NCBI GenBank assembly: GCA_030619715.1 | Contig: JAUXAW010000001.1 | Span: 3,195-67,194, forward strand | Reading direction: 5' to 3' | From: a candidate division WWE3 bacterium | Lineage (GTDB): Bacteria > Patescibacteriota > WWE3 > JAUXAW01 | Length of the DNA stretch: 64,000 bases | In this document: positions 6,095 through 27,558 of the stretch, piece after piece | How positions within the stretch are numbered: the first letter of the stretch is position 1 | How the letters are laid out: each line of letters opens with the position of its first letter | Notes under the pieces: model-generated | The model's input: only the letters and a program-made list of their open reading frames with translations | What the model was told of the DNA's origin: nothing | The model's database searches: none | Program-made: the position numbers and the translations under genes

Positions 6095-7186
6095 TTACTT
6101 CTTCCGAAGGAAGGTTGGGATTTCGTACTTCTCTTCTTCCTCTTTCATCTTCCCCCGAAATTCTTCCCTAAATCCTTCAACCCTTTCCTCAGACGGGGGT
6201 CGGCCTTCGAAGCCGGTGGCGATGACCGTAATTTTCAGTTGGTCGACCATCGAGTCGTCGATCGTCGCCCCGAAGATAATGTTAGCATCGGGGTCGGCCG
6301 CCTGGGCAATAATCTTTGCCGCCTGGTCCACCTCGTGCATCGTCAAATCCGGGCCGCCGATGATATTAAAAAGTATACCTTTGGCTCCTTCGATATCAAG
6401 CTCCAAAAGGGGCGAGGAAATGGCCGCTTTCGCGGCTTCTTCGGCGCGACGCTCACCGGAACTGCGGCCAATCCCCATCAGGGCCGAACCGGCGTCGGTC
6501 ATAATCGTCCGCACATCGGCAAAGTCCACATTAATCAACCCCGGCATCACAATTAAATCGGAAACTCCCTGAACGCCCTGTCCCAGAACGCCGTCGGCAA
6601 CCTTAAAGGCGTCCAGAATTGACATTTTCTTATCCACAATTTCCAAAAGCTTCTGGTTGGGGATAGTAATTAGGGCGTCAACCTTATCCCTCAAATTAAC
6701 AACCCCTTCCTCGGCCTGTTGCATCCTCTTGCGTCCTTCAAACTCAAAGGGCTTGGTCACCACTCCGATCGTCAATGCTCCCAAACTCTTGGAAATTCCG
6801 GCGATGATTGGCGAGGCGCCGGTCCCCGTTCCCCCACCCAAACCGGCGGTCAAAAAGACCATGTCCGACCCCTCCAAAATCGCCTGTATTCTCTCGGTCG
6901 ATTCCTCCGCCGCCTTGCGGCCAATCTCGGGATTGGCCCCCGAACCCAAACCACCAGTCAGCTGCTCGCCGATCTGAATCTTGACCGGGGCGTTGTTGAT
7001 CGAAAGCGCCTGGGCGTCGGTGTTGACCGCCACAAACTCCACTCCTTGAATCTGCTGGAGGTCAATCATGGAGTTGAGGGCGTTACCACCCCCACCCCCA
7101 ATGCCGAGGACTTTGATGTTTGCAAATTTTTCAACTTCCGGTTTGATTAACATAATATGATGAAAAGGGATTCGGGGCAGAATCAA
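6095..7186 (-). CDS. ftsZ: Cell division GTPase FtsZ.
   Basis: GGGTGTG tubulin signature; FEFEGRKR. Confidence 0.95.
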
Positions 7187-7201: not shown

Positions 7202-7642
7202 CTAAATCCTCTTTGTATCCCTCTTAATTCTATTCCTGAAGGTAAACACTTGTAACGGTCTGCTCCCAAAATTTACCAGAAAACCTATACTTAATCCAGA
7301 CGCTCTTAGATAAGAAACCGTTTGTGATCTAAACTGTGAGTGCGAAGTTTCCACCGCCTTAACCTCAACAACAATCTTTCCATCAACTACCAAGTCAATT
7401 CGATGATCCCCAACCTTCCCTCCTTTAAAATGAACCGGCACATGTACTTCCTCTCGAAAGCGAATCCGATGTTCCTTGAGGCACTTTTTAATCGCTTCAA
7501 CATAAACCGACTCTTTAAAGCCGGGACCTAGCTCGTTATAAACCTCAAAGAAAATCCCCCTTAACTTATAGGTGAGCTCCGGATACAACAACTCCTTTTC
7601 ATTGCTGATCCCTCTTGATCCTTCGTCATCCTTCTTAATCAT
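7202..7642 (-). CDS. GxxExxY family protein (PD-(D/E)xK-like).
   Basis: LTYKLRGIFFEVYNELGPGFKESVYVEAI matches the GxxExxY signature. Confidence 0.7.
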   Translation of the reverse strand: MIKKDDEGSRGISNEKELLYPELTYKLRGIFFEVYNELGPGFKESVYVEAIKKCLKEHRIRFREEVHVPVHFKGGKVGDHRIDLVVDGKIVVEVKAVETSHSQFRSQTVSYLRASGLSIGFLVNFGSRPLQVFTFRNRIKRDTKRI

Positions 7643-7644
7643 AT

Positions 7645-8880
7645 TCAGGGCAGATAGGATTTAATCCAGTTGACCATTCTTCCCAAAAGCTCAAACACAC
7701 GTCCCCGAGCGGCGCCTAAACTGATGCGGCGTTCGGGCTGCAATCTCGAACCGTACAAAAGAAGGCCAATCGAGGCAGCAAAAGCCGGGCCATTAACCTC
7801 TTCAATCAGACCCGAAGCCCCGCGAGGTTGGCCAATCCGCACCGGCATCTTCAAAACCTGTTTGGCGGCCTCGGCAATCCCCGCCGTCTCCGCCGCTCCC
7901 CCGCAGATAATAATTCCCGCCGGTAGCTTCCCGGCAAAACCAGACTTCTTGACCTCCAATGCCACCAGCGAGAAAATCTCCTGCAGTCGTGCTTTGATAA
8001 TTTCGTTGAGCGTTTTTTTTGACAACGTTTTCGTCTCCAGTCCCAAATCAGAAATGTCAAGCTGATTCTCTTCTTTCTGGTTGCCTAGCGCCGCCACCTG
8101 CAGTTTTTCCTTGATCTTCCCCGCATCCTCCAAACTGGTGCGCAAGCCGATGGCCAAATCGTTGGTGAGATTCTGACCGCCGATCGGTAGAACCGTGGCG
8201 TAGGCCGGACTGCTGTCCTCAAAAACCAAAATGTCCGTCGTTCCCCCGCCGATATCGACCAAAACCGCGCCCAACTCCTTTTCCGTGTCCGTCAAAACCG
8301 CTTCGGCCGCCGCCACCCCCCCAAAAACCAGATCCTCCACGTCTACCCCGACCTGCTGGACGCACTTGACCAAGTTCCTCATCACCGTCGTGGCTCCGGA
8401 GATAATGTTCGTTTCTACCTCGAGGCGAATCCCACTCATCCCCACCGGGTCGCGCACTCCATCCTGCGAATCAACAATAAAACCGCGGGGGATGACGTGA
8501 ATGATCTCCCGCGACGAGGGAATCGAAATCGCCTGCGCCGCCTCGGTCACCCGAGCCACATCCGACGGCGAAATCTCACCTTCCTGATGGGCGACGGCGA
8601 CGACTCCGTGGGAGTTAAGCGAGGAGATATGCGTTCCGTCAACCAAACAGTAGGCCGAGGAAACGGCGTAACCAGCCATCCGCTCGGCGCTCTCGAGGGA
8701 CGCGGCAATCGCCTCGACCGCCTCGTCGATGTCAACCACCACTCCTTTCTTGATCCCTTTTGAAGGTACGGTTGAAACCCCAATGACCGAAATCTTCCCC
8801 TCGGGGGACAGAGTAGCAATGATCGTTGTTATCTTCGCGGAACCAATATCAAGTCCAGCAATTATCCTATCTTTGGCCAT
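7645..8880 (-). CDS. ftsA: Cell division protein FtsA.
   Basis: Actin-like ATPase motifs DIGSAKITT and DIGGGTTD. Confidence 0.95.
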   Translation of the reverse strand: MAKDRIIAGLDIGSAKITTIIATLSPEGKISVIGVSTVPSKGIKKGVVVDIDEAVEAIAASLESAERMAGYAVSSAYCLVDGTHISSLNSHGVVAVAHQEGEISPSDVARVTEAAQAISIPSSREIIHVIPRGFIVDSQDGVRDPVGMSGIRLEVETNIISGATTVMRNLVKCVQQVGVDVEDLVFGGVAAAEAVLTDTEKELGAVLVDIGGGTTDILVFEDSSPAYATVLPIGGQNLTNDLAIGLRTSLEDAGKIKEKLQVAALGNQKEENQLDISDLGLETKTLSKKTLNEIIKARLQEIFSLVALEVKKSGFAGKLPAGIIICGGAAETAGIAEAAKQVLKMPVRIGQPRGASGLIEEVNGPAFAASIGLLLYGSRLQPERRISLGAARGRVFELLGRMVNWIKSYLP

Positions 8881-8923: not shown

Positions 8924-9658
8924 TCAATACCTAACAACAGGTTGTTCGTACCGTAAATCGACTTGCTTAAGACTCTTGCCTTCAATTTTATACTTTTGCA
9001 AGACCGTTTGTAAAGACCGAATTTGGCCTGCAAGATCTTTTTCGCGGGAAAAGAATATCGTCAATTCCTCGTCACCTTTGACTTCGATTCCTGTCTGGCC
9101 GGCAAATTTGACCGAAGAAACCCAGGGCTCTTCAAGAAGAATCAATAAGACAATATTCGCGTCGATCGTCTGTCCCAGTGCCAATTCCGAACCCAACTCC
9201 AGAACAACTGTTTTCAGGCCTTGCCACTCCGGCTGGACTTCGGAGTAGATAACGCCTTCTTTGTCAACAAGAAATTCCAAGCCCCCAGGACGGGAAATCT
9301 TAGCAATCGGCTTTCTTTCGCTAATCTGAACGACGACCGTCTGCGAATACTTCTTTTTAAAAACCACATCTCCCACCGGCAGAAACTTTTTTCTTATTTC
9401 ACCGGCGATCGCCTGTTCTTTAAGAAGAAATATCCTCTGCCCAATCGCTGACCTCTTGGCCTGCTCACACCATCTTTTTTCGTCGGCGACCGAAGTTTTG
9501 TCTTTAACCTGACAGTTGACCTTCTTAATGATGAAAAAATCGGACTTGAAGACAAGATAGAACCCACCAACCAGGAGTCCAACTCCAAGGAGAACAAGAA
9601 ACAATCTTTTAAACCACCGCCGCGCTACTCGAACTTTGGGTTTCCACAATTTAACCAT
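8924..9658 (-). CDS. ftsQ: FtsQ/DivIB-like cell division protein. The start at 9658 (MVKLWKPK...) is preferred over the track start at 9751.
   Basis: Single TM segment followed by a POTRA-like region. Position between murG and ftsA. Confidence 0.7.
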   Translation of the reverse strand: MVKLWKPKVRVARRWFKRLFLVLLGVGLLVGGFYLVFKSDFFIIKKVNCQVKDKTSVADEKRWCEQAKRSAIGQRIFLLKEQAIAGEIRKKFLPVGDVVFKKKYSQTVVVQISERKPIAKISRPGGLEFLVDKEGVIYSEVQPEWQGLKTVVLELGSELALGQTIDANIVLLILLEEPWVSSVKFAGQTGIEVKGDEELTIFFSREKDLAGQIRSLQTVLQKYKIEGKSLKQVDLRYEQPVVRY

Positions 9659-9671
9659 CAAAACTATTCTA

Positions 9672-9717
9672 CAGTAAAGACAGTAATTCAGTAAAGACAG
9701 TAACCCAATAAGAACCT
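9672..9717. repeat. Tandem CAGTAAAGACAGTAA x2 plus AAGAACCT element upstream of ftsQ.
   Basis: cagtaaagacagtaattcagtaaagacagtaacccaataagaacct. A related element lies at 6029-6058. Confidence 0.6.
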
Positions 9718-9893
9718 TTCGCTTCGCCAAGTCTGACTTGGCTTCGCTCAAGAACCTTGCATTTGAGCATAGTCTAACGACTATTAGCTCAAAAGTAGGC
9801 CTTCGGCTTATTTAACTCCGGTACTTGACTTCTGTCCTGTATTATGTTAAAATTAAGAAGTAAAATGTGGTCGCAGAGCTTAATCTGCCAAAT

Positions 9894-9922
9894 TTGACAA
9901 ACGGAACAAAAACTGTTATAAT
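9894..9922 (+). promoter_or_regulatory. Perfect consensus sigma70 promoter TTGACA-17-TATAAT.
   Basis: TTGACA at 9894-9899, exactly 17 nt spacer, TATAAT at 9917-9922, then TTAAGG. This is the same cassette as at 26836 and 26904. Confidence 0.6.
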
Positions 9923-9928
9923 TAAGGT

Positions 9929-10021
9929 ATAAGCTCAAAAAGAAGCTTAAAAAAAGGCAATCAGCACTTGGTCTCGATATTCTTGTTATATCAAGGTCAA
10001 CCGCGGGTTGCCTTTATTTTT
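9929..10021 (+). ncRNA. Candidate short transcript or attenuator: promoter-proximal hairpins ending in an intrinsic terminator.
   Basis: Predicted TSS ~9929. Hairpin CAACC-gcg-GGTTG (9998-10010) followed by CCTTTATTTTT. An upstream imperfect hairpin sits around 9966-9994. Confidence 0.25.
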
Positions 10022-10057
10022 AGGCAATAAAACCAAATTCAAAGCGAGGAGGCAAAA

Positions 10058-10153
10058 ATGGCAAAGTACAAAACACCGCCGAGGTCCAAAAAGCGGCCGA
10101 CGGAGAACAGGGCGCTCGGTAGCATTCGCCGTCGGCAGCAACGACGCTCCTGA
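10058..10153 (+). CDS. Candidate 31-aa highly basic peptide (MAKYKTPPRSKKRPTENRALGSIRRRQQRRS).
   Basis: GAGGAGG RBS 5 nt upstream of the ATG. A second RBS+ATG mini-ORF (10 aa) starts at 10197. Could be leader peptides. Confidence 0.25.
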   Translation: MAKYKTPPRSKKRPTENRALGSIRRRQQRRS

Positions 10154-10691
10154 CCCAACACTTGGCCAGGAGCCAACAAAAACTAAAGGAGGTCACAATG
10201 CACAAAATGTCCGAGTTTCACCAACCTTAGCCGAAAGGCGAGGAACCCTCCTGAAACAAAAAACATCCCTGAATAGGGGAGCGGGTTGCAAGTAGGGAGG
10301 GAAAATAAAGGGCCTGGGCAGCCCTTCGGAGGGAAAGTTCGTCGGACAACGATGTCCAACAACTTTCCCTCCAATCCACCTGCTCTCAACCAACCGTTGA
10401 GGTCGGATGGATTCAACAACAATTTAACAACGAGGTGACACACTTGTGTGTTACCGCAGTTGACAAAAGACCTGTGGGTTGTAAGACGCGGAAAGTTCGG
10501 AAAAACATCGATTTCCGAATTTCCCTTGTCTTATTCACCCTTCATAAAGTTCAAAAAAAGAAAGGGGGCAAAATAAGACCAAAATGTACCACCTGACTCC
10601 GGACACCTGAACCCGCAAGGGCAGGCAACAGGAGGAGTCAGGGCCCACGCCCCCGTCCTTCGGGACACGGGCACGGGCAAGAAGGAGAGAA
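10154..10691 (+). promoter_or_regulatory. Long GC-rich structured 5' leader upstream of the cold-shock-domain gene.
   Basis: Nested hairpin GGGAAAGTT...AACTTTCCC at 10337-10375. Hairpin CTGACTCC...GGAGTCAG around 10594-10644. Hairpin GGTGACACAC-tt-GTGTGTTACC around 10433-10456. CspA-type genes typically carry long regulatory leaders. Confidence 0.3.
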
Positions 10692-11300
10692 ATGGCTAGT
10701 AGAATTAAGTTTTTCAACGGTACTCGCGGCTTCGGCTTCATCAAGCGCGAGGGGGAGCGAGACATCTTCTTCCACATCTCCGATGTGGTGAGCGGTTACA
10801 AACCGCAAGAAGGTGACTCGGTCGAGTTCGAGGTTGGTCAGGGCAAGAAGGGGCCCGCCGCCAGGAACATCCGCCCCGCCTCAGCCAATTCCGGTGAGGC
10901 GACCATGAAGGTCGTGATGGAGGGCGACGCGGTAACGAGCTCTGGCTCGTGCACCATCATCTGCGGCCTCAAAGGGGAACCGCTGCCAGCACTCAGTGCC
11001 CCCATGCGGGGAACTGGTAAGGGTAGCTACGCCACCCTGCGAGTAGGGAAGCACATCCAGGTGAAGGGTTCCTGGTACAGAGGCGAACCCGCCCAGATTA
11101 CCGTGGAAGAGGTTACTCCTGTCAAGGACGGAGAGCCGATTCGCGAGCTACTCTGGAAGGGAATTGCCGAGGAACTACCGGAGGTCTATGCCTATCTGGA
11201 GAAGGCAGTGCGCGCTGCGGATGAAAAAGCCCAGTGCTACCACTGCCACCACCTGCACTTTCCGGTGGCAAACGCTGGGCAGCTCGGCGCCAGAGTGTAG
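10692..11300 (+). CDS. Cold-shock-domain protein with a ~135 aa C-terminal extension (Cys/His-rich tail).
   Basis: N-terminus KFFNGTRGFGFIKREGERDIFFHISDV...GDSVEFEV is a CspA-like CSD. C-terminus carries QCYHCHHLH. GC about 60%. Confidence 0.75.
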   Translation: MASRIKFFNGTRGFGFIKREGERDIFFHISDVVSGYKPQEGDSVEFEVGQGKKGPAARNIRPASANSGEATMKVVMEGDAVTSSGSCTIICGLKGEPLPALSAPMRGTGKGSYATLRVGKHIQVKGSWYRGEPAQITVEEVTPVKDGEPIRELLWKGIAEELPEVYAYLEKAVRAADEKAQCYHCHHLHFPVANAGQLGARV

Positions 11301-11312
11301 AACACGGGATCA

Positions 11313-11342
11313 GAGGCGCCAGTATCCGCCTCTCTTTGCAGG
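11313..11342 (+). terminator. Candidate terminator hairpin after the csd gene.
   Basis: GAGGCG-ccagtatc-CGCCTC followed by TCTTTG. Weak T-run. Confidence 0.3.
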
Positions 11343-11630
11343 CAAAAGTTCGTCAGCAGTTTACGAACTCCCCGACCTGCGAAGTATTACAAGGGGATGA
11401 AAAGCACCAAGCACGTCTGGTCTATCAGATGCCCGATGAATAGGGTTGGTAGAAGACGTGCTACAGAGGGAGTCTGAAAGGACTTTGCTTTCAGACCGAT
11501 GCGCGCCCATGTTGCGTGTCCAACACTGATACCAGAACTAGTATCAGACCGTTGCTCCTCTCTCCAAGCTCATTAGTCTAAAAGGGTTAGTGAGTTTAGG
11601 GAGGGGAAATAGAAAAATAACTCAGTCATA

Positions 11631-12746
11631 TCAATTCAGTAACTTAACGACTTCGTCTGCGATGTTGTCTGCCGCATCCAACCGCACTAACTTCTGCGCC
11701 TTCTTTCCCCCTTCCCGATATTTTTCCAAATTGGACAAAAGTATATCACTATGTAGTAGTATACTTTTGGCAGATAAATCTTTTTCCTCAAGAATAATCG
11801 CCGAACCGGTGTCGACGAGAAGCTGGGCGTTTTTGCGCTGTTCGTCGTGGGAAACCCAGGGAATAGGAATCAAAATCGCCGGCTTTCCCAATGCGGCCAA
11901 TTCGTAAACAATATTCGCTCCCGCCCGGCTGACAACCAAATCGGCGGCGGCAAAAACAGCACCGATTTCCTCCTCACCAAAAAAATCTTGCAACAAGTAA
12001 CACGATCGTAGCTCCGCGCTAAGAGCTGAGCGCTGAGCGCTAAGCGCTTCGTAATCATCGAAGACCGTTGACCTCCCACACTGATGAATAACGTTATATT
12101 TCTCCAACAACTGCGGCAACGCTCCTTTCACCGCTTCGTTAATCACATGCGAACCTTGTTTTCCTCCAGTAATGTAAATTGTTGATAGTTGATTGTTGAT
12201 TGCTAATTGTTTTTTTACTTCGAAAATTGCAGGCCTGAGAGGATTACCGGTTACGGCAATTTTATCCCTCGGGAAATACTTTAAGGACTCTTCCCAACTG
12301 ACAAAGATTTTCTTTGCGAACTTAGAAACAAGCCGGTTCGCCCATCCCCCTTCAACCGTCTGCTCGTGCGTCACCGAGGGAATTCCCAAAAACCAGCCGG
12401 CTATCACCACCGGAGGAGCAAGATAGCCTCCGAAGCTGACAATCAAATGGGGTCGGATTTTCAAAAGATAACAAAAGGCCTGCAGAAAGCCGAACGGCAA
12501 GCGAATCAATTTTAGTGGGTGAAAAGTCCTGTAAAGCTTACCGGCCTTAAGGTCATAAAAAGGAATCCCCCGCCCGGTCACCTCCTGATATTCGGCGCTG
12601 ACATTCTTATCTCCCCACATGGAGAACTTGTGACCGATCCAACAAAAATTGGAAATTGGAAATTGGAAATTGGAAATTAGAGAATCGATGACAGCCAAGG
12701 CGGGCGTATGGTGACCACCAATAAAAACAATCCTAACGTCTTTCAT
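11631..12746 (-). CDS. murG: UDP-GlcNAc:undecaprenyl-PP-MurNAc-pentapeptide GlcNAc transferase MurG.
   Basis: N-terminal IVFIGGHHTPALAV. GGKQGSHVINEAV. The GT28 C-terminal domain is present. Confidence 0.9.
   Translation of the reverse strand: MKDVRIVFIGGHHTPALAVIDSLISNFQFPISNFCWIGHKFSMWGDKNVSAEYQEVTGRGIPFYDLKAGKLYRTFHPLKLIRLPFGFLQAFCYLLKIRPHLIVSFGGYLAPPVVIAGWFLGIPSVTHEQTVEGGWANRLVSKFAKKIFVSWEESLKYFPRDKIAVTGNPLRPAIFEVKKQLAINNQLSTIYITGGKQGSHVINEAVKGALPQLLEKYNVIHQCGRSTVFDDYEALSAQRSALSAELRSCYLLQDFFGEEEIGAVFAAADLVVSRAGANIVYELAALGKPAILIPIPWVSHDEQRKNAQLLVDTGSAIILEEKDLSAKSILLHSDILLSNLEKYREGGKKAQKLVRLDAADNIADEVVKLLN
12651..12678. repeat. Heptanucleotide tandem repeat (GGAAATT)x4 inside murG, in frame.
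   Basis: ggaaattggaaattggaaattggaaatt. It encodes ISNFQFPISNF in an N-terminal MurG loop. Confidence 0.9.
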
Positions 12747-13870
12747 TTTGAACTCCTGACCGTATAACGGCTAACCGAAAGAAGCAGCCCCATGGCCATC
12801 ATCATAAAAATCATCGACGAGCCGCCGTAAGAAATTAAAGGCAGGGGAATTCCCGTCAGCGGCAGCAAAGCCGTCATCGCCGCCAGATTGACTAGAACTT
12901 GAATTGCCAACCACGAAGCAACACCAGTCGCAACCAATTTTCCCAAATCATCAGGTGCCTCCCGTGCCACGGCAAAACTTTTAAAAATCAAAAAAGCAAA
13001 CGCCGCCACCACCGCCACCGTCCCCACAAAACCCAACTCCTCCCCGACGACGGCAAAAATTGAATCGGTTGTCACCTCCGGAAGATACTCGTACTTCTGG
13101 CGAGACTGACCAAATCCCAAACCAAAGGCCCCACCAGAACCAATCGCCATCAAAATTTGCTGGATATGATACCCACCGGAAAGAGGATCGGCCGCCGCGG
13201 GATCAAGATAAGTTTGCAGGCGCTGCATTCGATAAGGCGAGTTAATAATAAACAAAATCCCCAAAATTCCCAAACCTAATCCGAGAGGCAACAGCTTGAG
13301 GATGCTAACACCGGAGACAAAATAAATACAGAGTCCAATTGCGGCAATAACCATTGCTGTCCCGTAGTCGGGCTGGAGGACAACCAGACCACAAAGAACT
13401 GCCAAGAGAAAAAGAAACGACGAAAACCTCTGCTTTTTCTTGGCAAACCAAGCCGAAAGATAAAGAATAAAACTAAACTTGGCCAATTCCGACGGCTGGA
13501 AGCCCATCCCCCCCGGAAGGTAAATCCATCTTCGAGCACCATAAACTTTGGGAATAAACGCCTCAAAAACTGCTGGTAAAAATCGGGCTATCACCGTCAG
13601 GAGCAAGAAAAAAAGACTTAAGGCAAAAATAGTAAAGCTAAGCTTTGAAAGACGCTGGTAGCCTAGCTTGTAGACGAAAAACGCCGCAAGCGTCCCCAAA
13701 AGAACCCAGAGCGATTGGAGGATTAAAAAATGGTATTTTCCTCCAAAAACCTCGTGGGCATAAACGACCGAGGCATCGTAGACCATAATGACACCGAAGA
13801 TGAGGAGCAAGATGACTCCGATCAAGAGTGAGATATCTGGGGAGTGGGAAGTCTGTTTGAGACGAGGCAT
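12743..13870 (-). CDS. ftsW: SEDS-family peptidoglycan polymerase FtsW/RodA.
   Basis: 10-TM SEDS protein. Position in the dcw cluster. Confidence 0.85.
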   Translation of the reverse strand: MPRLKQTSHSPDISLLIGVILLLIFGVIMVYDASVVYAHEVFGGKYHFLILQSLWVLLGTLAAFFVYKLGYQRLSKLSFTIFALSLFFLLLTVIARFLPAVFEAFIPKVYGARRWIYLPGGMGFQPSELAKFSFILYLSAWFAKKKQRFSSFLFLLAVLCGLVVLQPDYGTAMVIAAIGLCIYFVSGVSILKLLPLGLGLGILGILFIINSPYRMQRLQTYLDPAAADPLSGGYHIQQILMAIGSGGAFGLGFGQSRQKYEYLPEVTTDSIFAVVGEELGFVGTVAVVAAFAFLIFKSFAVAREAPDDLGKLVATGVASWLAIQVLVNLAAMTALLPLTGIPLPLISYGGSSMIFMMMAMGLLLSVSRYTVRSSK

Positions 13871-13975: not shown

Positions 13976-15070
13976 CTACAACAGTGCCACCAAAACACCG
14001 GCAAATGCTAAGACTGCACCAGCTAACCAAAGACGCATTGTGACCTTGGTCTCCGGCCAGCTGAGCATCTCAAAATGATGGTGAAGTGGCGCCATCTTAA
14101 AGACCCGACCCCGACCCATTTTGACCGAGGCAACTTGGATAAGCACCGAAAGAACCTCGGCCACAAAAACGCCGCCAACTATTAAAAGACTTAACTCCCG
14201 TCGCAGCATCATTGCTATTACGGCGAGAGTCATCCCCAAGGACAGCGAGCCGACATCGGCCATTTCAAAACGAGCCGGATGAATATTGAAGTAAAGAAAC
14301 GACAGCAAAGTTCCCACAACAGTGGCGCAAAAATAGCCAATCTGATTGTAGCCTAAAGCTAAACTAATAACCATATAGGCGGTAAAAGCCATCGCCAAAA
14401 GACCGCCGGCGAGCCCGTCCATCCCATCGGTTAAATTGACGGCGTTGGCCATTCCCGCCAACATCAAAACAACGAGGGGAATATAAAAAATTCCGATGTC
14501 AAAAGTTCCCAAAAACGGCAGCCAAAGTTCGTGCCAATCCAGTTTGAAGTACATCCACCAGGCGGCGACCAAACCGATGGCTACCTGAATGAGAAACTTT
14601 TCCCAGGGCTTAAAACCGGAGGTTGGGTAGCTACCCAGAGCCCGAAAAATTTCCTTAAAAGCGTTCCAGGGCAGAAGTAAAATGTTATAGATGTTCCAGG
14701 TGAAGCCGGACAAGGTAACAATCGGTGTAACTCCCCCCCGCACCGTGTCCGAAAGTTTGGCGTGACCAAAAATGTTTAAAAGATCGTCGATGCCGCCAAA
14801 GATGCCTGCTATAGCCAAACAGAAAAGAGGTAGACAAGTTTGCGCTCGCGAGAGATTAAAGACAAGAGTGATGGCAATGGTGGTCAGTACCATCAACAGG
14901 CCGCCCATGATCGGGGTCCCCAACTTGACCCGCCGCGCCTCAATTTTCTCTTCAACCTCCTGCCTGATTCGTCGACGAACGTTACACTTGTACAAAAATT
15001 TGATCAACAGCGGCGCCCAGGCAAAACTCACTATTAACGATCCCAAAAGAAAAACCAACGCTTTAATCAT
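13976..15070 (-). CDS. mraY: Phospho-N-acetylmuramoyl-pentapeptide transferase MraY.
   Basis: NAVNLTDGMDGLAGG motif. Polytopic membrane protein. The track start at 15094 overlaps murF; the internal Met at 15070 is more likely. Confidence 0.9.
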   Translation of the reverse strand: MIKALVFLLGSLIVSFAWAPLLIKFLYKCNVRRRIRQEVEEKIEARRVKLGTPIMGGLLMVLTTIAITLVFNLSRAQTCLPLFCLAIAGIFGGIDDLLNIFGHAKLSDTVRGGVTPIVTLSGFTWNIYNILLLPWNAFKEIFRALGSYPTSGFKPWEKFLIQVAIGLVAAWWMYFKLDWHELWLPFLGTFDIGIFYIPLVVLMLAGMANAVNLTDGMDGLAGGLLAMAFTAYMVISLALGYNQIGYFCATVVGTLLSFLYFNIHPARFEMADVGSLSLGMTLAVIAMMLRRELSLLIVGGVFVAEVLSVLIQVASVKMGRGRVFKMAPLHHHFEMLSWPETKVTMRLWLAGAVLAFAGVLVALL

Positions 15071-16302
15071 TGTTTCCAACGCACGTCCTGACAAACAAGA
15101 AGTTCCGCGACACGTGATGGATCCTTCAAAAGCTTTTCGACGATTTTCTCCATCCTCATTCCCCGCGAGCCTTTGACTAGGATTATATCACCTTTCTTAG
15201 GCTTAATTAAATCCACAATCGATTTCGATGCTTCCTCGGAATTTTCAAAACGATGATACTGCGCAGTATTAGAGTGGAAAGATTCACCGACCGTGATTAG
15301 AACATCAGCGTCCGACTCGGTAACCATCTGCCCGACCAAACGGTGGCCATTTTCTTCAAAATCACCCAACTCGAGCATATCCCCGAGGACCGCGATTCTT
15401 CTCTTCGCCGAAAAATTTTTTAGAACTTTGAGGGCGGCGGCGGCCGATTTTGGTGAGGAATTATAGCTGTCGTCCAAAATTTTTGCGCCGTTGATACCAC
15501 CCAAGAGATTTAGACGACCTCTGAGAGGCTTAAGCTTTTTCAAACCACGATTAATCTCGACCGTAGACAAACCGCAAACCTTCCCCACGGCCGCCGCCGC
15601 TAGTGCATTATAAATTACATGCTCTCCCAAAAGGGGAATTTGGGCCTTAATTATCTCTGGCCGGACATCAGCCCTTGGGTTTTTCCCGTACCAGACAATC
15701 GGACTTTTACATTTTTTCTCCAACGAGCGTACATTTTCATCGTCCCAATTTAAAACCGCCGCCCCCGACGGTGGAAGTGCTTCCAGTAGTTCTCCCTTGG
15801 CTTTGATAATATTTTCCAAAGTACCGAGCTTCTCCATGTGCGTTGGATTGATAAAAGTAACAACGCCGATTCGTGGCTTAATGATCTTGCAGGTTTCTCT
15901 AATCTCTCCCAATCGGTCCATCCCCACCTCAACAACTAATTTCTGGTGAGATTTTTTGAGGTTGTTCACAATTTCAATTGAGAGTCCCAAAGCGGTATTC
16001 AGAGTCTCGGCGGATTTTAAAACCTTAAATTTCTGTGCTAAAACGGTGGTAATGGCTTCTTTGGTTGAAGTTTTCGCCGTCGAACCGGTAATGGCAATTA
16101 CTTCGGGGTTGACTTTCTTTAAACGCTTTTTAGCAGTTTCGTAAAGCTCCTCTTCTTCCAAAACTCCCTTCGCTCCCTTCTTCAACGCCTCGTCAATAAA
16201 CTTGTGCCCGTCGTACTTCTCCCCCTTGACGGCGACAAAATATTCCCCCTTTTTAATCAACCTCGAATCCTGACAAACTTTCATAACATCTAAAGATGTC
16301 AC
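15067..16302 (-). CDS. murF: UDP-MurNAc-tripeptide--D-Ala-D-Ala ligase MurF (Mur ligase).
   Basis: ITGSTAKTSTKE P-loop. N-terminus DSRLIKKGEYFVAVKGEKYDGHKF. Four bp overlap with murA. Confidence 0.8.
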   Translation of the reverse strand: MTSLDVMKVCQDSRLIKKGEYFVAVKGEKYDGHKFIDEALKKGAKGVLEEEELYETAKKRLKKVNPEVIAITGSTAKTSTKEAITTVLAQKFKVLKSAETLNTALGLSIEIVNNLKKSHQKLVVEVGMDRLGEIRETCKIIKPRIGVVTFINPTHMEKLGTLENIIKAKGELLEALPPSGAAVLNWDDENVRSLEKKCKSPIVWYGKNPRADVRPEIIKAQIPLLGEHVIYNALAAAAVGKVCGLSTVEINRGLKKLKPLRGRLNLLGGINGAKILDDSYNSSPKSAAAALKVLKNFSAKRRIAVLGDMLELGDFEENGHRLVGQMVTESDADVLITVGESFHSNTAQYHRFENSEEASKSIVDLIKPKKGDIILVKGSRGMRMEKIVEKLLKDPSRVAELLVCQDVRWKQ

Positions 16303-26705: not shown

Positions 26706-26733
26706 TTTATCACACCCTATCTGTTTTCTCCCG

Positions 26734-26814
26734 TGATGTAGTGGCAGGCTTGTCTGTTACCTCCCCTCACTAAAGTGATGTAATTCCCGTACGGCCGTAC
26801 GCAATTAACATCAC
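26734..26814. promoter_or_regulatory. Operator-like element: three GTGATGT(A/T)A boxes (two direct, one inverted) around a perfect 14 bp palindrome CGTACGGCCGTACG.
   Basis: gtgatgtag (26734). gtgatgtaatt-CCCGTACGGCCGTACG-caattaacatcac (26775-26814). Confidence 0.45.
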
Positions 26815-26835
26815 TTCCCACCAACCCCCTCATAT

Positions 26836-26864
26836 TTGACAACCATCTTGTAATATGGTATAAT
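26836..26864 (+). promoter_or_regulatory. Perfect consensus promoter TTGACA-17-TATAAT (copy 2).
   Basis: TTGACA at 26836-26841, 17 nt spacer, TATAAT at 26859-26864, then TAAAGG. Confidence 0.6.
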
Positions 26865-26903
26865 TAAAGGGTGGGATGCAGTAGCGAACTTTAGTTCGCG
26901 CAT

Positions 26904-26932
26904 TTGACAAACAGAGCATTCTATGCTATAAT
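26904..26932 (+). promoter_or_regulatory. Perfect consensus promoter TTGACA-17-TATAAT (copy 3, tandem to copy 2).
   Basis: TTGACA at 26904-26909, 17 nt spacer, TATAAT at 26927-26932, then TAAGAAGG. Confidence 0.6.
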
Positions 26933-27162
26933 TAAGAAGGAAAATGGGATAAGACGATGGAGAGAGGCCCAGGAGGGCTTTTGGTAGAAGGACGCGAAAC
27001 GCTCGTTTCTTTCCATCAGAAGCCTTTAAGGTTCTTCGAAAGTCACAAAACAGAAAGTGAGGAAAATTGCTAAAATTGCGGTTAGCAGCCGCCGGAGGCT
27101 CTCAAATCCAAAACCGAGAGCTTCTGTAAAAATCCTGGCGAGATGCCAGGAAAAGGGGCAAA

Positions 27163-27426
27163 ATGTCTACTCCAACCTTGTGGAGGGAGGACTGGGGGGA
27201 GTACTCCTTCCGCCCGCCGTGTGGGCACGCCGGTGGCGGTGCAGGTGACCAAATCCCCCACGACGAGGTGGACGAGACTGGTACATGGACATGTCCTGTG
27301 TGTGGGCTGTCCATCCAGATAACAGGCTCGTCCCCCGTGCCAAGTGACAACTGGAGTGACTCCAATGATGCCCTCGTCACTTGGCCGGATGGAAGGTTAG
27401 AACTATTTGCAGTTCACGATGTCTAA
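27163..27426 (+). CDS. Small GC-rich protein with a zinc-ribbon-like CxH...CPVCG motif, 87 aa.
   Basis: ATG preceded by GGGG. A hairpin CTGGC-gagat-GCCAG lies just upstream. GC about 60%. The only plus-strand gene inside a minus-strand glycosyltransferase run. Confidence 0.45.
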   Translation: MSTPTLWREDWGEYSFRPPCGHAGGGAGDQIPHDEVDETGTWTCPVCGLSIQITGSSPVPSDNWSDSNDALVTWPDGRLELFAVHDV

Positions 27427-27464
27427 CCTCCTTAATAACCGTATTCGCCTCTTAAGGCGAGTTG

Positions 27465-27533
27465 ACACGCTTAACGTACGGTTACTTAACCAGAAATGGT
27501 TGAGGTTCCGAAAGCGTGTCTTCTTTTGTTTGT
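27465..27533 (+). terminator. Large intrinsic terminator (possibly bidirectional).
   Basis: 9 bp stem GACACGCTT/AAGCGTGTC enclosing an inner hairpin, followed by TTCTTTTGTTTG. Confidence 0.55.
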
Positions 27534-27558
27534 AAGAGGAGGATAGCAAGCAAGCTTG

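What the first reader, a model, noticed from the sequence alone, without database searches (positions are those of the whole stretch)
9929..11342. GC-rich plus-strand insert in the dcw cluster: promoter, terminator-bounded short RNA, mini-ORFs with strong RBSs, ~540 nt structured leader and a cold-shock-domain fusion protein
Between ftsQ and murG lies a ~1.6 kb GC-rich block on the opposite strand from the dcw genes. A candidate ~90-nt transcript ends in a canonical terminator. Next come two mini-ORFs, a 31-aa very basic peptide and a 10-aa peptide, each with a GAGGAGG/GGAGG RBS. Then follows a leader full of stable hairpins and a CSD protein whose C-terminal ~135 aa end in a Cys/His cluster (QCYHCHHLH). 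The architecture suggests attenuation or thermosensing control, as in cspA. Inserting a stress-responsive, divergently transcribed unit in the middle of the division cluster is unusual.
Basis: partly seen in the sequence, partly recalled or inferred. Interest (0 to 1): 0.55.

Follow-up and report, generated by a model that had tools for sequence, protein, structure and literature searches.

The report
Conserved structured leader with swapped cargo
Between two cell-division genes of an uncultured bacterium sits a strongly promoted, hairpin-rich leader with two tiny genes, which related genomes also carry. Behind it this strain has acquired a rare gene that fuses a cold-shock RNA-binding domain to a phage protein domain, so this looks like a variable accessory-gene slot, not a cspA-style thermosensor.

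Summary
These are a 12/12 consensus promoter, an A/U-flanked long hairpin, two Shine-Dalgarno-led small ORFs, an exceptionally stable leader (z = -8.8) and a 202-aa cold-shock-domain (CSD) fusion.

The cspA-like reading is not supported.
- Five of seven related murG-ftsQ gaps (FtsQ 58-90% identical) carry the same plus-strand unit: consensus promoter(s), 5' hairpin, ORF1, and hairpins that keep pairing through compensatory changes. Four of the five also have the micro-ORF2.
- The gene behind the unit differs between loci: the CSD fusion here, an unrelated 155-aa ORF in the closest relative, and none or other cassettes elsewhere. Two relatives have HicAB at this spot instead.
- No Rfam family matches, and the Shine-Dalgarno sequence (SD) of the CSD gene is not sequestered.

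The CSD fusion has only four homologues among 5.8 billion proteins. It carries its own covarying three-tier hairpin just before its SD. Its C-terminal domain belongs to an unnamed protein family found on 50 IMG/VR viral contigs, with a weak fold resemblance to the AFV1 ORF157 nuclease.

Best reading: a lineage-conserved, strongly transcribed small-ORF/structured-RNA unit beside an accessory-gene hotspot, which drives a foreign cargo gene by read-through. The leader's own function is unknown. Interest is moderate.

The parts
9825..9853 (+). Upstream promoter P1 (TTGACT-17-TAAAAT, with TG)
   Evidence: Tandem promoters about 69 nt apart also occur in L008, L011 and L016.
9894..9922 (+). Promoter P2, 12/12 sigma-70 consensus with extended -10. 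The inferred transcription start is about 9929-9930.
   Evidence: Conserved in L008, L009, L011, L014 and L016.
9931..9948 (+). 5'-terminal hairpin AAGCU-CAAAAAGA-AGCUU
   Evidence: Six loci keep the hairpin and a CAAAWNA loop. The stem switches between AAGCU/AGCUU and GGGU/ACCC, and 2 of 5 pairs are compensatory.
9945..10025 (+). Long hairpin flanked by an A-tract and UUUAUUUUU. It is terminator-like on both strands.
   Evidence: -31.4 kcal/mol, z = -5.4. The same form occurs in L008. The other relatives have a short hairpin without a U-run here.
10058..10153 (+). ORF1, 31 aa, very basic, behind GAGGAGG
   Evidence: An SD-led ORF of 31-68 aa sits at this position in all six loci. The window, L011 and L014 share an RPTExxAL motif. 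The long form has three more homologues at 69-77% identity.
10146..10173 (+). Hairpin that encloses the ORF1 stop codon
   Evidence: A hairpin holds the ORF1 stop in the window, L008, L011 and L016, with non-homologous stems in L011 and L016. In L014 only a weak hairpin (-3.5 kcal/mol) starts at the stop codon.
10186..10230 (+). AAGGAGGU plus micro-ORF2 (10198-10230, 10 codons)
   Evidence: An SD followed by 3-10 codons is found in the window, L008, L011, L014 and L016 but not in L009.
10225..10243 (+). GAAA-tetraloop hairpin that holds the ORF2 stop codon
   Evidence: Conserved in L011.
10246..10301 (+). Domain closed by CCCUCC/GGGAGGG
   Evidence: The outer stem covaries in L011 (UCUCC/GGAGA).
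10328..10372 (+). 45-nt hairpin with a conserved apical GGAC-AAYNNY-GUCC
   Evidence: The lower stem keeps pairing in L008 and L011 through four compensatory changes.
10374..10412 (+). AUCCACCUGCUC hairpin. CCGTTG at 10394-10399 is the left edge of the segment that L011 lacks.
   Evidence: The hairpin also occurs in L009.
10455..10641 (+). Cargo-proximal leader block with two hairpins (10476-10540 and 10595-10639, the second with a GCAA loop)
   Evidence: 89-90% identical to L008 in front of a different gene, and about 95% identical to L003. CCC/GGG changes to UCC/GGA and the loop changes GCAA to GAAA.
10643..10678 (+). Three-tier hairpin GCCC-GCCC-GUCC(UUCG)GGAC-GGGC-GGGC, 3 nt before the SD region
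   Evidence: Kept in L003, L004 and L005, with the inner stem replaced in L004 (GAGC/GCUC) and a U-G pair in L003. Absent in front of the L008 cargo.
10692..11300 (+). CSD fusion protein, 202 aa. CSD is aa 4-61 (10701-10874). The phage-family C-terminal domain is aa ~70-202 (10899-11297).
11301..11548 (+). Structured 3' region. It occupies the place of the ~200-aa partner gene of L002 and L003.
   Evidence: z = -6.8 for 11298-11640. No trace of the partner gene.
11555..11606 (+). Terminal long hairpin next to the murG stop codon. CCGTTG at 11549-11554 is the right edge of the segment that L011 lacks.
   Evidence: Single copy in the window. Two copies in L011 flank a two-gene cassette. A degenerate copy occurs in L008.

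Best explanation
The gap between murG and ftsQ holds two things of different age.

**(1) A lineage-conserved plus-strand unit, transcribed divergently from ftsQ.**
- One or two consensus sigma-70 promoters.
- A hairpin at the very 5' end of the transcript.
- A small basic protein gene (ORF1).
- A 3-10-codon micro-ORF with a strong SD.
- A string of stable hairpins capped by GNRA or UUCG loops.

**(2) A slot behind this unit in which accessory genes are exchanged.** In this genome the slot holds a compositionally foreign cassette made of three parts:
- a three-tier hairpin;
- an SD and a gene fusing a cold-shock domain to a phage-family domain;
- a structured 3' region.

**Inferred mechanism.** No promoter-like site lies between 9930 and 10692. 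The CSD fusion is therefore most likely expressed by read-through from the leader promoters. In this strain and in L008 the A/U-flanked hairpin at 9945-10025 probably attenuates that read-through. The hairpins probably act as stability or processing elements and as barriers against convergent murG transcription. They are not a thermometer.

The protein most likely binds single-stranded nucleic acid through its CSD and brings a phage-derived, possibly nuclease-like, domain to it.

**Shown:** the sequence features, their conservation, the covariation, the cargo variation, and the phage distribution of the C-terminal domain.
**Inferred:** co-transcription, attenuation, the role of the hairpins, and the protein's activity.
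For: - **Promoters.** Consensus promoters. They are rare in the window.
- **Stability.** The leader's stability is extreme.
- **Same architecture in relatives.** It is found in L008, L009, L011, L014 and L016, whose FtsQ is 90, 70, 58, 60 and 68% identical.
- **Covariation.**
  - 5' hairpin.
  - 45-nt hairpin.
  - GNRA hairpin of the 10455-10641 block.
  - A conserved ~140-nt block in the relatives. It has 39 pairs, 94.7% of cells paired, 10 pairs with compensatory changes against 0-3 in the slid controls, and 3 invariant U-G pairs that fix the strand.
- **ORF1 is a real gene.** An SD-led ORF is present in all six loci. The 67-68-aa form is conserved at 69-77% identity in three further contigs.
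- **Cargo varies behind a conserved block.** The window has the CSD fusion, L003 has the CSD fusion plus a partner gene, and L008 has a 155-aa ORF. The L003 3' trailer matches the L008 trailer at 22 of 24 nt. The terminal hairpin is duplicated around a cassette in L011. HicAB occupies the same gap in L010 and L012.
- **Cargo is foreign.** It is 55-61% GC against flanks of 34-50%. The C-terminal domain occurs in 50 IMG/VR loci, usually as a stand-alone protein of about 140 aa.
- **No internal promoter** was found between 9930 and 10692.
Against: - There are no expression data, so co-transcription and attenuation are untested.
- Covariation rests on only 3-6 sequences per element, and they are related to each other.
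- The leader evolves by module gain and loss. The block best conserved in relatives is missing from the window. The U-run terminator form exists only in the window and L008. Much of the leader may therefore be dispensable.
- The minus strand folds as well as the plus strand (z = -10.1). Energy alone therefore does not identify the strand.
- ORF1 differs almost completely between the window and L008 although ftsQ/ftsA DNA is 93% identical.
- The function of the leader, of ORF1 and of the CSD fusion is not established by any homology.
Confidence: 0.5

Rival explanations
1. The ~760-nt leader is a cis-regulatory device of the cold-shock gene, acting as an attenuator or RNA thermometer as in cspA. 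It would tune CSD synthesis to temperature or to CSD protein level.
For: - A long structured leader precedes a CSD gene.
- A terminator-like hairpin follows the promoter.
- The three-tier hairpin just before the SD is conserved with covariation in four CSD-fusion loci. It could be an autoregulatory site for a protein that melts RNA.
- There is a weak FourU-like hit (E = 0.66, 20 bits against a cut-off of 60).
Against: - The same leader precedes a non-CSD gene in L008. In L009 and L014 no called plus-strand gene follows the leader.
- L002, L004 and L005 have unrelated sequence upstream of their CSD-fusion genes. Only L004 and L005 keep the proximal hairpin.
- Nothing matches the Rfam cspA thermoregulator.
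- The SD is unpaired in the local fold.

Only the 36-nt proximal hairpin can be specific to the CSD gene.
Confidence: 0.1
2. The conserved part is a free-standing new structured RNA, possibly working as a ribonucleoprotein with the basic ORF1 product. Its function would be unrelated to the cargo, and the cargo would merely have landed next to it.
For: - Tandem consensus promoters, as for stable RNAs.
- GNRA and UUCG loops.
- Covariation and invariant U-G pairs.
- Conservation across genomes with FtsQ identity down to 58%.
- No Rfam match, so it would be new.
Against: - Modules turn over quickly, and the best-conserved block is lost in the window.
- Two SD-led ORFs lie inside it.
- There is no defined 3' end.
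- It is replaced outright by HicAB in two relatives, so it is not essential.
Confidence: 0.2
3. The block is a remnant of a mobile element, or an integron-like cassette array, in which the long hairpins are recombination sites used by a recombinase encoded elsewhere.
For: - The terminal hairpin is duplicated on both sides of a two-gene cassette in L011.
- CCGTTG lies at both edges of the 1.15-kb segment that the window has and L011 lacks.
- Identical flanks surround different cargo.
- The cargo is GC-rich and phage-related.
- Near-perfect stems fold equally well on both strands, as DNA hairpin sites would.
Against: - No integrase or transposase lies within about 6 kb in the related loci. The only candidate is a weak Y1_Tnp hit, about 8 kb from ftsQ in L008.
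- The element is single copy in the window.
- It sits at the same chromosomal position in genomes down to 58% FtsQ identity.
- Canonical RNA tetraloops and U-G pairs point to selection at the RNA level.
- Homologous recombination between conserved flanks explains the swaps without a dedicated enzyme.
Confidence: 0.15
4. It is a toxin-antitoxin or abortive-infection module, either type I/III (small peptide or RNA plus effector) or a two-gene CSD-nuclease system.
For: - The gap hosts HicAB in two relatives.
- The CSD fusion has a conserved ~200-aa Cys-rich partner gene in L002, L003 and L004.
- CSD proteins are effectors in some retrons. The NCBIfam Se72 model gives 52 bits and PADLOC CSD_V matches.
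Against: - ORF1 peptides are hydrophilic and basic, unlike type I toxins.
- There are no tandem RNA repeats.
- The partner gene is absent from the window.
- The retron model scores below its cut-off (52 against 82), and no reverse transcriptase lies nearby.
- PADLOC matches only the generic CSD.
Confidence: 0.05

Closest known systems
cspA-type cold-shock mRNA leaders (Rfam cspA thermoregulator)
   Same: A long structured 5' leader lies upstream of a cold-shock-domain gene. A role for RNA structure in expression is plausible.
   Different: - No covariance-model match.
- The leader is about five times longer than the cspA leader (my own knowledge).
- It contains two translated-looking ORFs.
- It is shared with loci that lack a CSD gene.
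- The SD is not sequestered.
Integron platform (Pc promoter, promoterless cassettes ending in attC hairpins)
   Same: - A fixed strong promoter with promoterless cargo behind it.
- Long imperfect hairpins at cassette ends, duplicated around a cassette in L011.
- Different cargo between identical flanks.
   Different: - No integrase gene in the neighbourhood.
- At most one or two cargo genes.
- The hairpins were not compared with an attC model.
- The platform itself carries ORFs and an RNA with covarying pairs.
Accessory-gene hotspots and phage 'moron'-like islets
   Same: - A fixed chromosomal gap filled with different small accessory genes: HicAB, DUF3800, an aspartic-protease pair, and the CSD fusion.
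- The cargo is GC-atypical and phage-related.
   Different: Here a conserved promoter/leader unit sits at the slot and appears to supply transcription. The cassette brings hairpins but no promoter.
Retron CSD effectors (Se72 family; PADLOC CSD_V)
   Same: The CSD scores 52 bits on the Se72 model and E = 2.8e-16 on CSD_V.
   Different: - The Se72 score is below the family cut-off of 82.
- The protein is 202 aa with an extra domain.
- There is no reverse transcriptase and no msr/msd next to it.
AFV1 ORF157 nuclease (PDB 3II2; described as a nuclease in PMC4187194, which cites Goulet 2010)
   Same: It is the best natural structural match of the C-terminal domain. Foldseek gives E = 1.6e-3 and a target-normalised TM of 0.49. 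The BFVD top hits are Sulfolobales virus homologues, one annotated as a putative nuclease.
   Different: - The match is weak and sequence identity is 12-14%.
- The catalytic Glu was not mapped.
- The CYHC(R/H)xxH tail is a conserved motif of this family. Its presence in ORF157 was not checked.

Membership tests
cspA thermoregulator / cold-shock leader RNA (Rfam) | Match to the family covariance model | tested here: not met
   cmscan found nothing at the gathering threshold in the window. At E <= 1 in 9600-11700 there were only miRNA and FourU chance-level hits.
cspA thermoregulator / cold-shock leader RNA (Rfam) | The leader is specifically associated with a CSD gene | tested here: not met
   The homologous leader precedes a 155-aa non-CSD ORF in L008. 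In L009 and L014 no called plus-strand gene follows the leader.
RNA thermometer (FourU/ROSE type) | SD or start codon paired in a temperature-labile hairpin | tested here: not met
   In the local MFE and centroid folds the SD of the CSD gene is unpaired. The FourU hit at 9995-10064 scores 20 bits against a cut-off of 60.
Cold-shock domain proteins (Pfam PF00313) | CSD domain with RNP1/RNP2-like motifs | tested here: met
   PF00313 matches aa 4-61 at E = 1.2e-15, 57.6 bits against a cut-off of 27. RGFGFI and IFFHI can be read in the sequence. AF2 gives a five-stranded barrel, and Foldseek matches CspA/CspB structures.
CspA/CspE equivalogs (single-domain ~70-aa Csp) | Score above the NCBIfam equivalog cut-off, and a single-domain size | tested here: not met
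   The best NCBIfam score is 55 bits against a cut-off of 120. The protein is 202 aa and has a second domain.
Retron Se72 / type V CSD effector | Score above the family cut-off, and an adjacent reverse transcriptase plus msr/msd RNA | tested here: not met
   NF038236 scores 52 bits against a cut-off of 82. The neighbours are ftsQ and murG. No retron RNA was found in Rfam.
Intrinsic (rho-independent) terminator | G+C-containing hairpin followed directly by a U-run | tested here: met
   The pattern scan hits 9998-10010 followed by CCTTTATTTT. The extended hairpin is followed by UUUAUUUUU on the plus strand, and by UUUUUUU on the minus strand. Function was not tested. Terminator-like sites in the region are not enriched over shuffles (4 found against 3.3 expected).
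Integron | intI integrase gene adjacent to the cassette array | tested here: not met
   The ORFs flanking the block are dcw genes. The called genes within about 6 kb in L008, L009 and L011 show no integrase Pfam hit.
Integron | attC-type recombination hairpins at cassette ends | not tested
   No attC model is available in these tools. A long terminal hairpin is duplicated around a cassette in L011.
Type III toxin-antitoxin (ToxIN-like) | Tandem RNA repeats upstream of the toxin gene | tested here: not met
   No tandem or multi-copy direct repeats of meaningful length occur in 9600-11700.
AFV1 ORF157-class nuclease | Shared fold | tested here: inconclusive
AFV1 ORF157-class nuclease | Catalytic glutamate (Glu86 in ORF157) conserved | not tested
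   Residue-level superposition is not available here.
Unnamed phage protein family (WExGGGxTNTG ... HALF ... KAxCYHC[RK]xxH[YF]) | Significant sequence match over the whole domain, and the terminal CYHC motif | tested here: met
   phmmer with aa 70-202 gives 100 representative proteins at E <= 1e-3, six of them at E <= 1e-10, aligned over about residues 5-122 of the query. K179 and C185 are invariant, and Y183 and H184 are nearly invariant, across 80 sequences. There are 50 IMG/VR loci. The GGGxTNTG motif is degenerate in the window protein (EGDAVTSSGS).

The most novel reading that the evidence does not exclude
The conserved unit beside ftsQ is a previously undescribed expression and landing platform. 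It would be a strongly transcribed small-ORF/structured-RNA module whose hairpins serve both as RNA elements and as exchange points for hairpin-bounded gene cassettes. It would act as an integron-like system without a linked integrase, in an uncultured and probably Patescibacteria-type lineage. Alternatively, it is a new ribonucleoprotein RNA working with ORF1.
Probability: 0.12. Interest if true: 0.75.

Novelty: new variant of a known kind. Interest (0 to 1): 0.42.

Why it matters
**If the reading holds:**
- It shows how small-genome uncultured bacteria place foreign phage-derived genes under a resident strong promoter at a natural break in the division cluster.
- It supplies a candidate new structured RNA/small-protein unit with covariation support. 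Such units are largely uncharted in these lineages.
- It gives the first sequence-defined handle on an unnamed phage protein family of about 140 aa with a CYHC(R/K)xxH tail. In this protein the family domain is recruited onto a cold-shock domain, which suggests a single-stranded nucleic-acid target.

**If the reading fails:**
- It is an ordinary accessory-gene islet.

Tried and rejected
- **Rfam.** Searched the whole window at the gathering threshold, 9600-11700 at E <= 1, eleven related loci at gathering, and the L011 and L008 gaps at E <= 1. Only chance-level miRNA-type hairpin hits appeared.
- **tRNA/tmRNA.** None found.
- **DNA similarity of the leader.** No match in annotated phages.
- **Exact-pattern scans.** Conserved leader motifs found nothing in viral contigs or in metagenome contigs.
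- **Protein-pattern scan of metagenome contigs.** Nothing found.
- **The C-terminal domain in annotated records.** tblastn of the window's domain against phages, and of family member P0052 against phages and plasmids, found nothing.
- **Structure prediction.** AF2 with the five-sequence alignment failed for the C-terminal domain (pLDDT below 50). It succeeded with 80 sequences.
- **Family libraries.**
  - Pfam, PHROGs and PADLOC on the cargo proteins and partner genes gave nothing informative.
  - Pfam on the ORF1 peptides gave no hit.
  - Pfam and PHROGs on members of the C-terminal family gave no hit.
- **Paralogous copies.** None of the leader or the terminal hairpin elsewhere in the 64 kb.
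- **Remnant of the partner gene.** None in the window's 3' region.
- **Conserved neighbour of the family in phage contigs.** None; the largest neighbour cluster covers 5 of 49 loci.
- **Nucleotide similarity** between the leader and the 52 viral or MAG loci searched: none.
- **Replication origin** rejected, because GC skew does not change sign.
- **Type I toxin** rejected, because the ORF1 peptides are hydrophilic.
- **Strand assignment by folding energy** rejected, because both strands fold equally well. Tetraloop identity and invariant U-G pairs were used instead.
Full report
**Setting**

The window carries a division/cell-wall cluster on the minus strand:

| Gene | Coordinates |
|---|---|
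| ftsZ | 6095-7186 |
| PD-(D/E)XK gene | 7202-7642 |
| ftsA | 7645-8880 |
| ftsQ | 8924 to about 9660 |
| murG | 11631-12746 |
| ftsW | 12743-13870 |
| mraY | 13976-15094 |

The ~2-kb gap between ftsQ and murG holds only plus-strand features. In E. coli, murC and ddlB lie between murG and ftsQ (my own knowledge). Here they do not, so the gap is a natural break in the operon. The host is probably a Patescibacteria/CPR-type organism. That is inferred from gene content and from the uncultured sources of all relatives, and it was not tested.

- **Promoters.** A 12/12 consensus promoter with an extended -10 lies at 9894-9922. A second promoter lies at 9825-9853. Only three 12/12 promoters exist in the 64 kb.
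- **5' hairpins.** The transcript should start at about 9929, directly with a small hairpin (9931-9948). A long hairpin follows (9945-10025), flanked by an A-tract and UUUAUUUUU. It folds at -31.4 kcal/mol, z = -5.4. It looks like a terminator on both strands, and the minus strand has the better U-run.
- **Small ORFs.** ORF1 (10058-10153, 31 aa, very basic) and ORF2 (10198-10230, 10 codons) each follow a strong SD.
- **Leader stability.** 9929-10700 folds at -284 kcal/mol against -216 for shuffles, z = -8.8. The 3' region 11298-11640 gives z = -6.8. After regression on GC content, these are among the most stable 300-nt windows of the 64 kb.
- **CSD fusion.** 10692-11300 has a Pfam CSD at aa 4-61 and about 135 further residues with no Pfam match.
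- **Base composition.** Only this ORF is markedly GC-rich, at 59.6% against 46.4% for the window.

**Relatives**

The fusion protein is very rare. It has four homologues (63-79% identity) among 5.8 billion clustered proteins, all on short metagenome contigs.

FtsQ homologues led to seven related murG-ftsQ gaps. Five of them carry the same unit, divergent from ftsQ. These are L008, L009, L011, L014 and L016, with FtsQ identity of 90, 70, 58, 60 and 68%. The unit consists of the following parts:
- One or two consensus promoters.
- A 5' hairpin with loop CAAAWNA.
- A further hairpin.
- An SD followed by ORF1 (31-68 aa).
- A hairpin at the ORF1 stop codon. It encloses the stop in four of the five loci compared and is only weak in L014.
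- An A-rich linker, then AAGGAGGU and a 3-10-codon ORF2. L009 lacks this part.
- More hairpins.

The other two loci, L010 and L012, have HicAB at this spot. The unit is therefore lineage-conserved but dispensable. The gap is a variable slot.

**RNA-level conservation**

- The 5' hairpin switches between AAGCU/AGCUU and GGGU/ACCC stems.
- The 45-nt hairpin at 10328-10372 keeps its apical GGAC-AAYNNY-GUCC. Its lower stem keeps pairing through four compensatory changes in L008 and L011.
- The hairpin at 10595-10639 changes CCC/GGG to UCC/GGA, and its loop changes from GCAA to GAAA.
- A ~140-nt block is shared by L008, L009, L011 and L014.
  - It has 39 predicted pairs, and 94.7% of cells are paired.
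  - 10 pairs show compensatory changes, against 0-3 in the slid controls.
  - No shuffle in 500 reached the observed covariation score.
  - Three U-G pairs are invariant.
- Those U-G pairs, together with GNRA and UUCG loops on the plus strand, point to a plus-strand RNA. Folding energy cannot decide the strand, because the minus strand gives z = -10.1.
- The window has lost this block.
- No Rfam family matches the window or any relative.

The sample is small and the sequences are related. The covariation is supportive, not conclusive.

**The small ORFs**

- An SD-led ORF1 is present in all six loci.
- The window, L011 and L014 share the motif RPTExxAL. The window and L014 also share the C-terminal end QQR(R)S.
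- The 67-68-aa form has three further homologues at 69-77% identity. ORF1 is therefore a real small-protein gene.
- No ORF1 peptide has a Pfam match.
- ORF1 is almost entirely different between the window and L008, although ftsQ/ftsA DNA is 93% identical. This points to allele exchange at the locus.
- ORF2 is conserved in position and in its SD, but not in length or sequence. It looks more like a translational device than a peptide gene.

**Cargo**

A 187-nt block (10455-10641) is 89-90% identical to L008 and about 95% identical to L003. What follows it differs between loci:

| Locus | Cargo after the block |
|---|---|
| Window | CSD fusion |
| L003 | CSD fusion plus a ~200-aa Cys-rich partner gene |
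| L008 | Unrelated 155-aa ORF with no family match |

- The L003 3' trailer matches the L008 trailer at 22 of 24 nt.
- Compared with L011, the window has an extra 1.15 kb (10400-11554), with CCGTTG at both edges.
- The terminal hairpin (11555-11606) occurs twice in L011, around a two-gene cassette.
- The CSD cassette carries its own element, a three-tier hairpin (10643-10678) 3 nt before the SD region. It is kept in L003, L004 and L005, with a replaced inner stem and a U-G pair.
- The sequence further upstream in L002, L004 and L005 is unrelated to the window's leader, apart from one similar hairpin in L002.
- No promoter-like site lies between 9930 and 10692. In the local fold the SD of the CSD gene is free.

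**The protein**

- The partner gene accompanies the fusion in L002, L003 and L004 at 39-50% identity. It is absent from the window.
- The C-terminal domain matches 100 representative proteins at E <= 1e-3. Most of them carry a different ~55-aa N-terminal domain.
- The family is found on 50 IMG/VR viral contigs. There it is usually a stand-alone protein of about 140 aa, with the motifs WExGGGxTNTG, HALF and KAxCYHC(R/K)xxH(Y/F). It has no conserved neighbour.
- The family has no Pfam or PHROG match.
- With an 80-sequence alignment, AF2 gives mean pLDDT 82.8, and above 90 for most of the C-terminal domain.

**Interpretation**

The leader is not a device of the cold-shock gene. The best-supported picture has two layers.
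- An old, strongly transcribed small-ORF/structured-RNA unit lies beside ftsQ.
- A cargo slot lies behind it. In this strain the slot holds a foreign, phage-related CSD fusion, probably expressed by read-through.

In the window and L008, the A/U-flanked hairpin probably attenuates this read-through and blocks antisense transcription. The remaining hairpins probably stabilise or process the RNA and separate it from convergent murG transcription. These functional steps are inferred.

Rivals and their estimated probabilities:

| Explanation | Probability |
|---|---|
| Free-standing new RNA, or a ribonucleoprotein with ORF1 | 0.2 |
| Hairpin-mediated cassette exchange, or a mobile-element remnant | 0.15 |
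| cspA-like control | 0.1 |
| Toxin-antitoxin or defence module | 0.05 |

**Verdict**

The finding is a new variant of known kinds: an accessory-gene slot with a resident promoter/leader, a candidate new structured RNA, and a new CSD domain architecture. Interest is moderate (0.42). The leader's function remains unknown, and no experimental or expression data are available.

Noticed in passing
window 26706-27558: A second plus-strand islet lies between two minus-strand glycosyltransferase-like ORFs. It has two 12/12 consensus promoters 68 nt apart (26836 and 26904), followed by the same TATAATTAAG sequence as in the finding. A very stable leader follows, then a GC-rich (58%) 87-aa ORF with a CxxC motif (27163-27426). 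The design is the same as in the finding, so resident strong promoters driving small GC-rich genes may be a recurring theme in this genome.
   Followed up: partly
window 7202-7642: A PD-(D/E)XK_3 nuclease-family gene (Pfam E = 1.2e-32) is wedged between ftsA and ftsZ. The same arrangement occurs in L009.
   Followed up: no
L002 916-1515, L003 725-1339, L004 894-1598 (minus strand): A ~200-aa Cys-rich protein with no family match accompanies the CSD fusion in three of five loci, at 39-50% identity. It is co-directional in L002 and L003 and convergent in L004. It is missing from the window.
   Followed up: partly
L010 1-340; L012 4180-4930: In two relatives the murG-ftsQ gap holds a HicA/HicB toxin-antitoxin pair instead of the structured leader. 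In L012 a promoter-led 50-aa ORF also diverges from ftsQ.
   Followed up: partly
L011 3533-4758: In the same gap, L011 carries a DUF3800 gene. It also carries a 71-aa ORF plus a retropepsin-like aspartic protease, bracketed by two copies of the terminal hairpin.
   Followed up: partly
L014 4270-4330 (minus strand): The hairpin CAACCCGACGGGTTGA occurs twice, 50 nt apart, at the murG-proximal end of the leader.
   Followed up: no
L004 766-890; L005 717-810: The CSD-fusion orthologues L004 and L005 share a structured 3' element. The stems are GGGAGUGGA...UCCACUUCCC and GGAGGUGGA...UCCACCUCC, with a conserved GUGGAAAGGC. The window does not have it (read by eye).
   Followed up: no
L006 6010-7104: A stand-alone 119-aa member of the C-terminal-domain family in a MAG is followed by a 226-aa ORF. 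That ORF has a very weak DarT-like Pfam hit (E = 0.043).
   Followed up: no
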